Source: a virus
Taxonomy: Duplodnaviria > Heunggongvirae > Uroviricota > Caudoviricetes
Virus record (IMG/VR): IMGVR_UViG_2778261459_000009
Coordinates: 1-8,976 of that record
DNA: 8,976 bases
Direction: 5' to 3' (one strand)
The notes under the pieces: model-generated
The model's input: the letters and a program-made list of their open reading frames with translations, nothing else
The model's database searches: none
Told to the model about the DNA's origin: nothing
Program-made: the position numbers and the translations under genes
Shown: one piece after another, positions 414-5,912 of the stretch
Numbering within the stretch: position 1 is the stretch's first letter
Layout: each line of letters begins with the position of its first letter

Positions 414-1770
<1,357 letters not shown>

Positions 1771-2122: not shown

Positions 2123-2446
2123 ATGGATGCACAAACACGCCGCCGCGAACGTCGCGCAGAGAAACAGGCTCAATGGAAAGCAGCAAATCCCCTGTTGGTT
2201 GGGGTAAGCGCAAAACCAGTTAACCGCCCTATTCTCTCGCTGAATCGCAAACCGAAATCACGAGTAGAAAGCGCACTGAATCCGATAGACCTTACGGTGC
2301 TGGCTGAATACCACGAACAGATTGAAAGCAACCTGCAACGTATTGAGCGCAAGAATCATCGAGTTTGGTATAGCAAGCCAAGTGAGTTCGGTATAACTTG
2401 TCAAGGAAGACAAAAGGTTAAAGGGAAATCCATTCCATTGGCATGA
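2123..2446 (+). CDS. N: Antitermination protein N (107 aa), lambda-type, with arginine-rich boxB-binding motif
   Basis: MDAQTRRRERRAEKQAQWKAANPLLVGVSAKPVNRPILSLNRKPKSRVESALNPIDLTVLAEYH... closely matches lambda N as I recall it. The track ORF start at 2045 is an upstream in-frame extension. Confidence 0.92.
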   Translation: MDAQTRRRERRAEKQAQWKAANPLLVGVSAKPVNRPILSLNRKPKSRVESALNPIDLTVLAEYHEQIESNLQRIERKNHRVWYSKPSEFGITCQGRQKVKGKSIPLA

Positions 2447-2454
2447 GGTACGTA

Positions 2455-3324
2455 ATGAAGAAAATTGATTACAAGTCCATACCAAAACCAATAGACTCAG
2501 CATCAGAGCGAAAAAAACACAAAAAAGAGGCTGAAAAATTAGCAAATTATATCAGTTTTATTAGAAACAATGCTCACGGCGATGGCGACAGGAAGTTGCT
2601 TTCAGATGCCCGGACCCAAGCGTTCAGTATACTTCGTAAGCAGATGCAATATCGTCTTCATCCTGGCTACATAATTGAAATTCGCCCGACTGAAAGACAA
2701 TTGTTCTTATTAAACTCTGTCTTTGACTTTGTAAACGTAGTTGGAGATCTTATCGACAGGTCTGTAGATAAGGCTCCTGATACAAATAGTTTTCTTCTAA
2801 CAAATAAAGAATACTTATATGGTAAATTTGGTATAAACGGATGGCAAAAATATGTACGATTCTTACGTGCATTCGTTGATGCGTATAAAAATTCCGACAT
2901 GATTTATACATATTTGCCTGGTGGTGATAATTGTACGCTTTCGGCAGACAATAGAATATTCATACCTATACTTGGTCTTGGGCTGATTAATGCAGTAAAT
3001 GAAAGAGATGTTATAATTGTTAAGCAGTGGCGAAAGCATGAGGGATATAGATATCTGCCATGCTTTGATATATTAAAAATACAGAATAAATTCTATGTAA
3101 AAATTAAATATAAAGAAGATGTTTTCTTCCTCAGAAAAAACAAAGATCTTTTACAAGAACTTTCTGGGACAATAGATGTCATCGTAGGTTCTAGGTTTAT
3201 AAAAGAACTGAAAGAAAGCAGGTCTTTCTCTCGTGTAGAGATAAGCGAGTCAGAGTTATGGGGTATATCAAATAATCCTGTAAACCACGCTCACCAACGA
3301 AATCCAAACAAAAAGTGGTCATAA
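2455..3324 (+). CDS. AT-rich cargo gene of unknown function (289 aa) immediately downstream of N, in the position of lambda sieB/ral; candidate superinfection-exclusion or defence protein
   Basis: A 293-codon ORF begins at 2443; the likely start is the ATG at 2455, with a GAGG ribosome-binding site at 2446-2449. The base composition is visibly lower in GC than the flanking N and cIII regions, with long runs of AAA/ATA codons. I see no transmembrane segment and no motif I can name. A hairpin terminator follows directly. Confidence 0.75.
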   Translation: MKKIDYKSIPKPIDSASERKKHKKEAEKLANYISFIRNNAHGDGDRKLLSDARTQAFSILRKQMQYRLHPGYIIEIRPTERQLFLLNSVFDFVNVVGDLIDRSVDKAPDTNSFLLTNKEYLYGKFGINGWQKYVRFLRAFVDAYKNSDMIYTYLPGGDNCTLSADNRIFIPILGLGLINAVNERDVIIVKQWRKHEGYRYLPCFDILKIQNKFYVKIKYKEDVFFLRKNKDLLQELSGTIDVIVGSRFIKELKESRSFSRVEISESELWGISNNPVNHAHQRNPNKKWS

Positions 3325-3556: not shown

Positions 3557-3691
3557 ATGATGCACTTTCAGCTCGCGGGTAGCGGCGTCATGTCCGCTTT
3601 CTACCCGCACGAATCTGAATTATCACGCCGAGTTAAACAATTAATCAGAGCAGCAAAGAAACAACTGGAGGCGTTATGCGCAATGAAATAG
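3557..3691 (+). CDS. cIII: CIII-like protein (44 aa), a putative FtsH-inhibiting lysogeny regulator
   Basis: MMHFQLAGSGVMSAFYPHESELSRRVKQLIRAAKKQLEALCAMK shares the AGxxVxxxPxESxLxRxxxxL pattern of the lambda CIII central amphipathic helix. An AAGGAG ribosome-binding site lies 6 nt upstream of the ATG at 3557. It is in the expected position downstream of N. The track ORF start at 3452 has no ribosome-binding site. Confidence 0.75.
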   Translation: MMHFQLAGSGVMSAFYPHESELSRRVKQLIRAAKKQLEALCAMK

Positions 3692-3828
3692 CAATCAATC
3701 ACCAGATGCTTCGTGCTGCACAGAACAAAGCAGTAATAGCCAGATTTATTGGTGATTCAAAAATGTGGCTTGAAGCAAATAAAGCGATGAAATCAGCTAT
3801 CAACCTTCCGTGGTATCGCAGGAAATGA
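3676..3828 (+). CDS. kil: Kil-like small protein (50 aa), a possible host cell-division inhibitor; not present in the supplied ORF track
   Basis: ATG at 3676 with a GGAGG ribosome-binding site 5 nt upstream, overlapping the cIII 3' end. The translation is MRNEIAINHQMLRAAQNKAVIARFIGDSKMWLEANKAMKSAINLPWYRRK. The FIGD-KM--EA core resembles my recollection of lambda Kil, and the gene follows cIII as kil does in lambda. Confidence 0.5.
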   Translation: MRNEIAINHQMLRAAQNKAVIARFIGDSKMWLEANKAMKSAINLPWYRRK

Positions 3829-3909
3829 GTTTTACAGACAACTGGTCAGACGAAGAATTCATTCGTCAGATGAACAAAATGCTCAATCAGCACAAAGAAC
3901 AGGAGAAAG

Positions 3910-4221
3910 ATGATGATTCTGACTCTGAATGATAAGCGTGAAATATCGCAAATAATCGCAAGTTTTACTGATGAAGATTACGAACGAATCAACAGTGAAG
4001 TTGATCGCCTCTGCAAACGTTGCGACCCAATAAGCGAAATGCTTCGCTCATATAAACCAGATGAACATACTAAGGATGCTATCGACTGGCTGGAAGATGA
4101 TGACTGTAACTATCAGGAAAAAGCCGCTGAATGGTTCTGGGATGCAATAACCGAAAGAGTTAAGGCTGAATATGCCTTCGCAATATTTAAACGCAGACAC
4201 ATTTTTGGAGAAGCTGCATGA
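3910..4221 (+). CDS. Acidic hypothetical protein (103 aa) with a CxxC pair, immediately upstream of recT
   Basis: An AGGAG ribosome-binding site lies 4-7 nt before the ATG at 3910/3913. The stop overlaps the recT start (ATGA at 4218-4221). The protein has about 24 Asp/Glu against about 15 Lys/Arg, and includes CKRC. Confidence 0.65.
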   Translation: MMILTLNDKREISQIIASFTDEDYERINSEVDRLCKRCDPISEMLRSYKPDEHTKDAIDWLEDDDCNYQEKAAEWFWDAITERVKAEYAFAIFKRRHIFGEAA

Positions 4222-5120
4222 GCAATATCGTTGAATTCGTTAAACAGCAAGAGCAGTTATTCTGCGGAGCATTGACTGAACAGACGGTGACATGGGCTAA
4301 GGAAAGCCAGTTTGCAATTCAGTATTTCCAGAAAAACGATTACCTGGCTAAAACAGCACTGGCAAATCCAACCAGCGCACAGAACGCCATCATCAATGTT
4401 GCGGCGATCGGCATCACCTTAAACCCGGCCAGCAAACTGGCTTATCTGGTTCCTCGCGACGGCATGGTGTGCCTTGATATCAGTTACATGGGATTACTTC
4501 ACCTTGCACAGTCGACAGGATCAATTAAGTGGGGGCAATGCAAACTGGTGTACTCAAACGACACCTATGAATCAAACGGCCTTGATTCAGCACCAACCCA
4601 CAAATACAACGCATTTGGTGAGCGAGGCTCTATTGTTGGTGGTTATTGTACGGTTAAAACAGCAGATGGTGACTACCTCACTGAAGAAATGAGTCTGGCA
4701 GAAATTAAAGCTGTGGAAGCAACGAGCAAGGCAAAGAATGGACCGTGGAAGACATTCTGGGAAGAGATGGCGCGTAAAACAATAGTTAAACGCGCCAGCA
4801 AATACTGGCCTAAAGCCCAGCGACTGGATAATGCCATTCACCTGCTTAACGAAGATGAAGGTATGCATCAGGAACCAGTTATGCCGCACAAATCAGAGGA
4901 AGATATCCGCGAAGATGAACGGAAACGCCAGCAGGAAATTATGGAAAAAGCACAACTTCTTTGTGATGAAATGGTTCAGGCAGAAAACATGGATGATTTG
5001 AAGCGATATTTTGCAGAAGCATATCGCCTGACATCTGGAATGAAATTGCAGCAGAACGTACAAGCCATTTACATAGAATGCAAAGCGAAACTGGAGGTTG
5101 CCAGTGAGCAAACTGTATGA
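4218..5120 (+). CDS. recT: RecT/Red-beta family single-strand annealing protein (300 aa)
   Basis: NGPWKTFWEEMARKTIVKRASKYWP closely parallels the NGPWVTHWEEMAKKTAIRRLFKYLP segment of E. coli Rac RecT as I recall it. The overall length and layout fit the RecT family. Confidence 0.85.
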   Translation: MSNIVEFVKQQEQLFCGALTEQTVTWAKESQFAIQYFQKNDYLAKTALANPTSAQNAIINVAAIGITLNPASKLAYLVPRDGMVCLDISYMGLLHLAQSTGSIKWGQCKLVYSNDTYESNGLDSAPTHKYNAFGERGSIVGGYCTVKTADGDYLTEEMSLAEIKAVEATSKAKNGPWKTFWEEMARKTIVKRASKYWPKAQRLDNAIHLLNEDEGMHQEPVMPHKSEEDIREDERKRQQEIMEKAQLLCDEMVQAENMDDLKRYFAEAYRLTSGMKLQQNVQAIYIECKAKLEVASEQTV

Positions 5121-5586
5121 AATTGCCAATGAATACGCAAAATTGATGGATTCAGATTTAGAACCAGAGATGATTGCTGACACAATAGAAGGCATGGAAG
5201 GAGAATTTACCGATAAAATAGAGCAACTTCTTTCCGTCATTAAAAATGAATCTGGTTATGCTGAACGCCTCAAGGAAGAGGCAAAGTCACTGAATGAGCG
5301 AGCCGCAGTAATTCAAAATAAGATTGACAGCATCAAATCATATATAGCGTCATCGCTTGAAATGGTTGGCAAGAAAAATATTCGAGCAGGTATTCACCAG
5401 GTAACAATCCGCAAACCGTCAGAAACTGTAGAAATCATCGACTCAAGCGCCCTTCCTCCTGAATACGTTGAGTTTGAAACGACAATTAAAGCCGACAAAC
5501 TGGCAATCAAACACCAACTAAAAGCAGGAATAAATATCCCCGGCGCTCAACTCAAAGTTGGGAAACCTTCACTTCTTATCAAATAA
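5104..5586 (+). CDS. Gam-like / Siphovirus Gp157-family protein (about 160 aa), a putative host-nuclease inhibitor partner of RecT
   Basis: Likely GTG start at 5104 with a GGAGG ribosome-binding site at 5093-5097; the track gives a TTG at 5098. It has a coiled-coil-like N-terminus and a C-terminal part that resembles Mu-Gam/Gp157-type proteins found next to annealing proteins. The family assignment is from memory and is tentative. Confidence 0.55.
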   Translation: MSKLYEIANEYAKLMDSDLEPEMIADTIEGMEGEFTDKIEQLLSVIKNESGYAERLKEEAKSLNERAAVIQNKIDSIKSYIASSLEMVGKKNIRAGIHQVTIRKPSETVEIIDSSALPPEYVEFETTIKADKLAIKHQLKAGINIPGAQLKVGKPSLLIK

Positions 5587-5597
5587 CGGTATCGCCT

Positions 5598-5912
5598 ATG
5601 AAAAAGACTCCATGGGAGAAATGGGAAGTCGATTTCTTGCGCGAAGTAGCGGCGACAATGCCAGTTGAAGTTATCGCTGAAAAACTGGAAAGGACTGAAA
5701 AAGCAGTAATGGCGAAAGCAACAAGGATTGGAGCTGACATTGTTAGCCGACTTCGTGGAAGACGCTGGACAAGAGCCGAAGTATCACTTTTCGGTAAGTT
5801 CTCCGCAGAAGAAATAGCAATTGCAACCTGCCGCTCAATTTATTCAGTAAGAGCTATGCGATACAAGCTAAAAAAACTCGATGAAGAAAGAGCAGGCATA
5901 CGAATAAATTAA
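5598..5912 (+). CDS. Hypothetical protein (104 aa) with two tandem roughly 35-aa helix-turn-helix-like repeats
   Basis: The internal repeat is [37 protein letters not shown] against [37 protein letters not shown], with a shared W..EV..L......EEIA..L.R(T/S)..AV.A pattern. Confidence 0.6.

What the first reader, a model, noticed from the sequence alone, without database searches (positions are those of the whole stretch)
3910..4221. Acidic 103-aa protein with a CxxC pair, translationally coupled to recT
Small, strongly acidic early-operon proteins in phages are often DNA mimics or inhibitors of host nucleases or restriction systems. This one overlaps the recT start, so its expression is tied to the recombination module. 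Its function is unknown from the sequence.
Basis: inference. Interest (0 to 1): 0.4.

Follow-up and report, generated by a model that had tools for sequence, protein, structure and literature searches.

The report
Hidden Gam-like nuclease inhibitor before recT
The small acidic gene just upstream of recT is real, and it looks like a very diverged, so far unannotated relative of phage lambda's Gam protein, which shuts off the host DNA-end-degrading enzyme RecBCD; this is a useful annotation, not a new kind of biology.

Summary
The ORF at 3910-4221 (+) is a real gene. It encodes 103 aa, or 102 aa from the second ATG at 3913, which the family favours. It is acidic (pI 4.65, net charge -9) and its stop overlaps the recT start (ATGA at 4218-4221). 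The CxxC is incidental: only 3 of 58 family clusters have it, and many members have no cysteine.

The window is the early-left (pL) operon of a lambdoid/P22-like prophage: N, cIII, kil, a 35-aa ORF, this gene, recT, Gp157, an Abc1-like gene. The gene belongs to a small Enterobacterales phage family (phrog_3486, function unknown; no Pfam or NCBIfam match).

Three independent lines tie it to lambda Gam:
- **Position.** It sits in the gam slot. In phage Dewey the same kil...recT flanks hold a lambda-type gam instead.
- **Sequence.** A weak but non-random match covers a shared DDDxx(F/Y)QE(K/R)AAE motif at the same helix break.

In every locus where the downstream gene could be identified, the family heads a recombination module, of at least five different kinds.

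Most likely function: a Gam-type DNA-mimic inhibitor of RecBCD (confidence about 0.6). This is untested biochemically.

The parts
3910..4221 (+). The gene in question: 103-aa (102 aa from ATG 3913) acidic all-helical protein, phrog_3486, proposed divergent Gam-fold host-nuclease inhibitor
3901..3905 (+). AGGAG Shine-Dalgarno for the gene, 4 nt before ATG 3910 and 7 nt before ATG 3913
   Evidence: Read from the sequence
4012..4023 (+).
   Evidence: Only 3 of 58 family clusters have CxxC; many have no Cys
4069..4137 (+). Residues 54-76 (TKDAIDWLEDDDCNYQEKAAEWF): the stretch that aligns with lambda-type Gam residues 58-80 (SKKAISKAFDDDVEFQEKAAEFI), spanning the helix 4 / helix 5 junction
   Evidence: BLASTP 12/23 identical, E 8e-5 for the single comparison; hhalign P 4.5e-4 to 1.5e-3; 0 of 300 column-shuffled controls reach the score; the helix break falls at the same aligned position in both AF2 models
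4207..4221 (+). GGAG (4207-4210) plus the ATGA stop/start overlap (4218-4221): translational coupling to recT, embedded in the conserved but disordered G-E-A-A tail
   Evidence: Sequence; GAGG/GGAG 5-8 nt before the next start in all 10 loci compared; tail pLDDT about 50
3825..3932 (+). 35-aa ORF, ATGA-coupled to the kil stop and overlapping the gene's start by 23 nt; N-terminal homologue of HK446 gp33 (phrog_2123); forms one mosaic cassette with the gene
   Evidence: phrog_17766 and phrog_2123 matches; alignment with HK446 gp33; cassette boundaries 3825-4221 against SEN22; counterpart in ENT47670
3676..3828 (+). kil (left flank of the gam slot)
   Evidence: Pfam Lambda_Kil, E 1.7e-20
4218..5120 (+). 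recT, single-strand annealing protein (right flank of the slot)
   Evidence: Pfam RecT, E 2.6e-33; phrog_148
5098..5586 (+). Sipho_Gp157 / 'Mu Gam-like end protection' protein, classed as the MuGam type of anti-RecBCD protein by Zheng et al. 2025
   Evidence: Pfam PF05565, E 1.1e-37; phrog_253; PMC12315714
5598..5912 (+). 104-aa basic protein; its counterpart in phage Gally is annotated as P22 Abc1-like (PHROG: D5-like regulator); last gene of the module
   Evidence: phrog_11492 and phrog_323; Gally annotation

Best explanation
The gene encodes a highly diverged member of the lambda Gam fold class, occupying the gam position at the head of the phage recombination module. It is transcribed from pL after N antitermination. 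It is translated in a coupled chain: kil, the 35-aa ORF, this gene, recT, Gp157. By analogy with Gam, the roughly 100-aa acidic helical protein would dimerise, mimic DNA, and occupy the DNA-end binding site of host RecBCD (possibly SbcCD as well). Linear phage DNA ends would then be spared and left to the phage's own annealing and exonuclease proteins. Shown here: the gene is real, its anatomy and coupling, the slot equivalence with gam, the fold match, the shared motif, the matching size and charge, and the constant linkage to recombination modules. Inferred, not shown: dimerisation, DNA mimicry, and binding or inhibition of RecBCD.
Confidence: 0.6

Rival explanations
1. It is a recombination accessory or mediator protein that acts with the phage annealing protein or nuclease, as P22 Arf does or as T4 UvsY does, for example by loading them on DNA. 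It would not be a host-nuclease inhibitor.
For: It is always immediately upstream of, and translationally coupled to, the first recombination gene. T4 UvsY chains appear among the Foldseek hits.
Against: The UvsY hits are not significant (E above 4, TM about 0.25). Identical or 95%-identical proteins sit before non-homologous partners: RecT, a RecE-like nuclease, phrog_21613. That is hard to reconcile with a specific protein-protein partnership. Lambda and Dewey gam are packed just as tightly against the annealing gene. The best structural and sequence matches are to Gam.
Confidence: 0.15
2. It has a Gam-like acidic helical fold but is aimed at a different host target: SbcCD only, a restriction enzyme, or a nuclease-based anti-phage system.
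For: Sequence divergence from Gam is extreme. The N-terminal helix differs in the model. The module often already has a Gp157/MuGam-type protein. The 2026 OLD preprint describes lambdoid recombination loci as hotspots for anti-immunity genes (10.64898/2026.07.10.737580).
Confidence: 0.15
3. It is a zinc-binding or redox protein that works through the CxxC pair.
For: C35-x-x-C38 is present in the window copy.
Against: CxxC occurs in only 3 of 58 clusters. Whole subfamilies have no cysteine. There is no second Cys or His pair to complete a metal site.
Confidence: 0.01

Closest known systems
Bacteriophage lambda Gam (GamS; Pfam PF06064; PDB 2UUZ, 2UV1, 5MBV), a DNA-mimic inhibitor of RecBCD
   Different: Does not match the Pfam Gam model. 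About 16% identity over the structural alignment. The N-terminal helix is split at residues 18-20 in the model. The C-terminal helix is about 10 residues longer. The C-terminal tail carries the ribosome-binding site of the next gene. Dimerisation and RecBCD binding are untested.
phi80/Lula GamL (PHI80_39; annotated in the GenBank record as a host RecBCD/SbcCD inhibitor, toxic without Mog)
   Same: 93 aa, acidic, first gene of a recT-exo module. Itself a sequence type that barely matches Pfam Gam (E 0.085). Zheng et al. 2025 predict a Gam-like fold for it. It is therefore a precedent for Gam-fold proteins that sequence searches miss.
   Different: No convincing sequence similarity to this family (hhalign P 0.018-0.047). 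GamL keeps the MNAY...DRIE N-terminus of GamS, which this family lacks. No Mog/Agt-like gene was identified next to this gene.
P22 Abc2 (binds RecC and modifies RecBCD)
   Same: Anti-RecBCD function encoded inside P22-like recombination modules; the window has other P22-like features, including a C2-type repressor and an Abc1-like gene.
   Different: No sequence similarity. Abc2 lies downstream of the annealing gene, not upstream. Its mechanism differs: it hijacks RecBCD instead of blocking the DNA site (PMC9836394 abstract; PMC12315714).
Mu Gam / Sipho_Gp157 end-protection proteins
   Same: Proposed to shield DNA ends from RecBCD; one is encoded two genes downstream (5098-5586).
   Different: An unrelated protein with a different mechanism: Mu Gam binds DNA ends and is Ku-like (PMC12407980), it does not bind the enzyme. 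It co-occurs with this family instead of replacing it.
HK446/HK75 gp33 and P22 Arf (small proteins between kil and the annealing gene)
   Same: Neighbouring slot. The 35-aa ORF at 3825-3932, not the gene itself, shares its N-terminus with gp33. gp33 triggers P2 OLD and was proposed as a RecBCD manipulator.
   Different: A different gene from the one under study, with no similarity to it.

Membership tests
Lambda Gam family (Pfam PF06064, Host-nuclease inhibitor protein Gam) | Match to the family HMM above the gathering score (25 bits) | tested here: not met
   None of 58 family members hits PF06064 even at E 10. The window protein has no Pfam hit at E 0.1. With filters off and a home-made Gam HMM, scores are only 9-16 bits.
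Lambda Gam family (Pfam PF06064, Host-nuclease inhibitor protein Gam) | Gam fold: N-terminal helix followed by three helices in the same order | tested here: met
Lambda Gam family (Pfam PF06064, Host-nuclease inhibitor protein Gam) | Detectable sequence relationship to Gam | tested here: inconclusive
   The signal is local: hhalign P 4.5e-4 to 1.5e-3, probability 17-33%. It exceeds 300 of 300 shuffled controls. BLASTP E 8e-5 for one comparison. Real but short; it suggests homology without proving it.
Lambda Gam family (Pfam PF06064, Host-nuclease inhibitor protein Gam) | About 100-aa acidic protein encoded as first gene of the pL recombination module, downstream of cIII and kil | tested here: met
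   Cassette swap with gam in Dewey. Heads a recombination module in every locus where the downstream gene could be identified.
Lambda Gam family (Pfam PF06064, Host-nuclease inhibitor protein Gam) | Homodimer that binds the DNA site of RecBCD and inhibits its activities | not testable with these tools
   No multimer prediction or biochemistry is available here. The mechanism of Gam is taken from PMC5218532.
phi80 GamL sequence type | Sequence similarity to PHI80_39 | tested here: not met
   hhalign probability 1%, P 0.047; P 0.018 with the extended family. tblastn finds no cross-hits.
P22 Abc2 | Sequence similarity to Abc2 | tested here: not met
   tblastn with HK446 Abc2 finds nothing in the window or in any locus that carries the family.
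CxxC zinc-binding or thiol-redox proteins | Conserved cysteine pairs | tested here: not met
   One CxxC only, present in 3 of 58 clusters; many members have no Cys.
Ocr / ArdA-type DNA-mimic anti-restriction proteins | Fold similarity | tested here: not met

The most novel reading that the evidence does not exclude
The family keeps a Gam-like fold but has been retargeted. It would not block RecBCD. It would neutralise another DNA-end-processing or immune nuclease (SbcCD, or an OLD/Gabija-class system), or act with the neighbouring gp33-like peptide as a two-part manipulator of host end-processing. That would explain why it so often co-exists with a Gp157/MuGam-type end protector.
Probability: 0.15. 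Interest if true: 0.6.

Novelty: new member of a known kind. Interest (0 to 1): 0.4.

Why it matters
If the prediction holds, several things follow:
- A gene labelled 'hypothetical protein' in about 5% of complete E. coli genomes, and in phages of at least seven enterobacterial genera, gains a function.
- Some lambdoid recombination modules that appear to lack any RecBCD inhibitor would turn out to have one. Zheng et al. 2025 counted 43 of 246 such modules.
- Gam-fold inhibitors would be shown to diverge beyond the reach of Pfam, as phi80 GamL already suggests.

There are practical uses too. It would be an extra RecBCD inhibitor naturally paired with RecT for recombineering. It would also be a candidate trigger for defence systems that sense RecBCD inhibition, such as retron Ec48 and P2 OLD.

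It does not reveal a new mechanism.

Tried and rejected
- **Sequence searches without a named hit.** Pfam and NCBIfam gave no family. PHROGs gave only a family of unknown function. phmmer against PDB sequences gave only noise.
- **Foldseek.** Against PDB and BFVD nothing was significant. The only notable hit was an unnamed 107-aa viral protein at E 0.025, probably a distant family member.
- **AFDB50.** This fold library was not available.
- **phi80 GamL as the closest relative.** Rejected: hhalign P 0.018-0.047.
- **CxxC as a metal site.** Rejected on conservation.
- **UvsY-like mediator.** Only non-significant Foldseek hits.
- **Literature.** No paper mentions phrog_3486, and none found assigns a function to the HK140, mEpX1 or Kapi1 homologue. 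Zheng et al. 2025 list HK140's module as SAP-4 + MuGam and do not call this gene. Their supplementary tables are not held, so I could not check whether the gene is listed there.
- **Chi sites.** None in the window, but 9 kb is too short for this to mean anything.
- **Exhaustive HMMER search.** Only 54 hits. A few are long repetitive proteins, which I took as spurious.

Full report
**1. What is in the window**

The 8,976-bp window is the immunity region and early-left (pL) operon of a lambdoid/P22-like temperate phage or prophage. cII and cro lie on the minus strand (1-294 and 414-629). The rest is on the plus strand:
- a cI/C2-type repressor (737-1369);
- N (2045-2446);
- a 293-aa protein of unknown function;
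- cIII (ends 3691);
- kil (3676-3828);
- a 35-aa ORF (3825-3932);
- the gene in question (3910-4221);
- recT (4218-5120);
- a Sipho_Gp157 protein (5098-5586);
- a 104-aa protein (5598-5912); its counterpart in phage Gally is annotated Abc1-like.

The closest sequenced phages are Kapi1, HK140, mEpX1, Gally, EC.P3 and E212, at 91-98% DNA identity over 3600-5600.

**2. Checking the observation**

The ORF, its acidity, the CxxC and the overlap with recT are all as described.
- **ORF.** It runs from ATG 3910 to TGA 4219-4221. There is a second ATG at 3913. Almost all homologues begin M-[RNIK]-L-T, so 3913 (102 aa) is the likelier start.
- **Acidity.** pI is 4.65 and net charge -9. Acidity is conserved across the family.
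- **Coupling.** The recT ATG (4218-4220) overlaps the stop, and a GGAG lies 7 nt upstream at 4207-4210.
- **The conserved tail.** Across ten loci from six genera, the last codons of the gene always contain GAGG or GGAG 5-8 nt before the next gene's start. This explains why the C-terminal E-(A/V)-A tail is conserved although it is disordered in the model (pLDDT about 50). The conservation is at the RNA level, for coupling.
- **CxxC.** It is not conserved: 3 of 58 clusters have it, and whole subfamilies have no cysteine. I treat it as incidental.

**3. The family**

The protein matches phrog_3486 (function unknown) over its full length at E 3.7e-59. It has no Pfam, NCBIfam or PDB-sequence match.
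- Word-indexed searches found about 50 full-length clusters, all of 100-105 aa. Every cluster that carries an organism name is from Enterobacterales.
- An exhaustive HMMER scan of 1.84 billion cluster representatives found only 54 hits.
- Among sequenced phages it occurs in Escherichia, Salmonella, Cronobacter, Erwinia and Pantoea phages.
- The cassette 3825-4221 is present in 265 of 5,426 complete E. coli genomes, and the records listed annotate the gene as 'hypothetical protein'.

**4. Genomic context**

In every locus where the downstream gene could be identified, the gene is the first gene of a recombination module, and the next gene's start overlaps or directly abuts its stop. The modules themselves differ.

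| Downstream module | Where seen |
|---|---|
| RecT + Gp157 | window, Gally, PA-1, two metagenome contigs |
| RecT + YqaJ exonuclease | ENT47670, Midgardsormr38, three other loci |
| RecE-like DUF3799 nuclease + a phrog_11517 protein | SEN22 |
| RecE-like nuclease + RecT | phiEt88 |
| phrog_21613 protein + YqaJ | three contigs |
| RecT or DUF3799, contig then ends | remotest members |

One further locus (L017) was too short to identify the downstream gene.

The identical protein P0078 is found before two different modules. The SEN22 protein, 95% identical to the window's, sits before a module with no RecT at all.

DNA comparison shows that 3825-4221 (the 35-aa ORF plus the gene) is a discrete mosaic cassette. 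SEN22 shares exactly that interval at 96.5% identity, and its flanks are not similar to the window's.

**5. The gam slot**

Phage Dewey shares the window's cIII-kil (93%) and recT-Gp157-downstream (91%) sequences. Between them, in place of window 3832-4215, it carries an 80-aa ORF and a lambda-type gam (PF06064, E 1.5e-50). Lambda itself has kil-gam-bet-exo (established knowledge), and phi80 has gamL-recT-exo. The gene therefore occupies the position that other lambdoid phages give to their RecBCD inhibitor.

In the window and the 14 further family-carrying loci scanned, no lambda Gam, GamL or Abc2 was found by tblastn. The three loci with those genes lack the family. Only about half of the family's loci have a Gp157.

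**6. Structure**

AlphaFold2 with a 58-sequence alignment gave a confident all-helical model: pLDDT 90.8, pTM 0.77, helices at 6-17, 21-35, 40-47, 54-64 and 66-102.
- **Foldseek.** It was not significant against PDB or BFVD, though four GamS entries recur in the PDB list with TM 0.31-0.54.
- **Gam model for comparison.** An AF2 model of a lambda-type GamS (P0125) has helices at 2-37, 41-54, 59-68 and 70-96. The order and spacing are the same.
- **Differences.** The family's first helix is interrupted at residues 18-20, and its last helix is about 10 residues longer.

**7. Sequence link to Gam**

The signal is weak but consistent.
- hhalign of the family profile against a 120-sequence Gam alignment aligns residues 43-77 with Gam 41-80 (P 4.5e-4). 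With an 88-sequence extended family, P is 1.5e-3.
- None of 300 column-shuffled Gam alignments reached the observed score: 22.3 against 11.1 +/- 2.1, maximum 19.3.
- BLASTP of the window protein against Gam P0136 gives 12/23 identities, E 8e-5 for that single comparison: TKDAIDWLEDDDCNYQEKAAEWF against SKKAISKAFDDDVEFQEKAAEFI.
- A Gam HMM aligns nearly end to end with the remotest family member, P0122. That member also sits directly before a recT.
- The aligned motif spans the same helix break in both models: residue 65 here, residue 69 in Gam.
- By contrast, similarity to phi80 GamL is not convincing (P 0.018-0.047). GamL itself only reaches E 0.085 against Pfam Gam, which shows how fast these proteins diverge.

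**8. Interpretation**

Three lines of evidence that do not depend on each other converge on Gam: the slot, the best structural match, and the local sequence match at the structurally equivalent place. Size and charge also match.

I conclude, at about 0.8, that the protein has the Gam fold and is probably a remote homologue. I conclude, at about 0.6, that it does Gam's job: it binds host RecBCD (perhaps SbcCD too) as an acidic DNA mimic, so that phage DNA ends are left to the phage's own recombination proteins. The Gam mechanism itself comes from PMC5218532.

Partner independence (section 4) argues against a cofactor specific to RecT. Points against the main reading:
- failure of the Pfam membership test;
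- the broken N-terminal helix, which is the part that enters RecB in Gam;
- the presence in this window of Gp157, which Zheng et al. class as a MuGam-type anti-RecBCD protein (PMC12315714). Dewey, however, carries lambda Gam together with Gp157.

**9. Comparison with what is known, and novelty**

Zheng et al. 2025 surveyed 325 lambdoid genomes and recognised four anti-RecBCD types: Gam, GamL, Abc2 and MuGam. They describe HK140, which carries a 99%-identical copy of this gene, as having only MuGam. I found no paper that assigns a function to this family.

So this is best filed as a new, unannotated member of a known kind, a third sequence type of Gam-fold protein. It is not a new mechanism. 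Interest is moderate. It improves annotation, may fill the 'missing inhibitor' in some recombination modules, and offers a testable candidate for recombineering and for triggering RecBCD-guarding defence systems.

**10.

The interpretation (DNA mimic or host-nuclease inhibitor tied to the recombination module) is supported by the evidence available, with two qualifications: the CxxC is irrelevant, and the function remains a prediction.

Noticed in passing
window 3825-3932 (+): A 35-aa ORF, ATGA-coupled to the kil stop and overlapping the start of the studied gene by 23 nt. Its first 21 residues are 76% identical to HK446 gp33 (phrog_2123, 56 aa). A 2026 preprint (10.64898/2026.07.10.737580) reports gp33 as a trigger of P2 OLD and a candidate RecBCD manipulator. 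The ORF moves with the studied gene as one cassette (SEN22). ENT47670 has a 33-aa counterpart in the same place.
   Followed up: partly
protein P0025 (E. coli, 69 aa); corresponds to window 3825-3914 joined to 4105-4221: A natural in-frame fusion of the 35-aa ORF (residues 1-30) to residues 66-103 of the studied protein. It is apparently a deletion between two short GATGATGA repeats, and it removes the first four helices.
   Followed up: no
window 2443-3324 (+): A 293-aa basic protein (phrog_12139, unknown function) directly after N. Its last 20 residues (...HQRNPNKKWS) match the C-terminus of Nun-like transcription-termination factors (phrog_5632, E 4e-5). It may be a Nun-type arrest tail on a much larger protein.
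   Followed up: no
window 1294-1770 (+): An ORF overlapping the end of the repressor gene (phrog_2651, unknown function). An internal Met is followed by a signal-peptide-like segment ([20 protein letters not shown]). It sits in the slot where lambdoid prophages carry exclusion or lysogenic-conversion genes.
   Followed up: no
window 4195-4221 and the equivalent 3' ends in L001-L015: The conserved but disordered C-terminal E-(A/V)-A tail of the family coincides with a GAGG/GGAG Shine-Dalgarno and the start codon of the next gene. The conservation is probably at the RNA level and not for protein function.
   Followed up: yes
window 5098-5586 (+) and 5598-5912 (+): The module has no recognisable exonuclease. 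RecT is followed by a Sipho_Gp157 protein ('Mu Gam-like end protection') and a 104-aa basic protein (its Gally counterpart is annotated Abc1-like; PHROG calls it a D5-like regulator). The same gap is noted for HK140 in PMC12315714.
   Followed up: partly
L001 5130-5699 (SEN22) and L011 4300-4803: Two proteins of unknown function (phrog_11517, 189 aa; phrog_21613, 167 aa; weakly related to each other, E 0.0017). They sit where an annealing protein is expected, next to a RecE-like or YqaJ nuclease. They may be an unrecognised single-strand annealing protein type.
   Followed up: no
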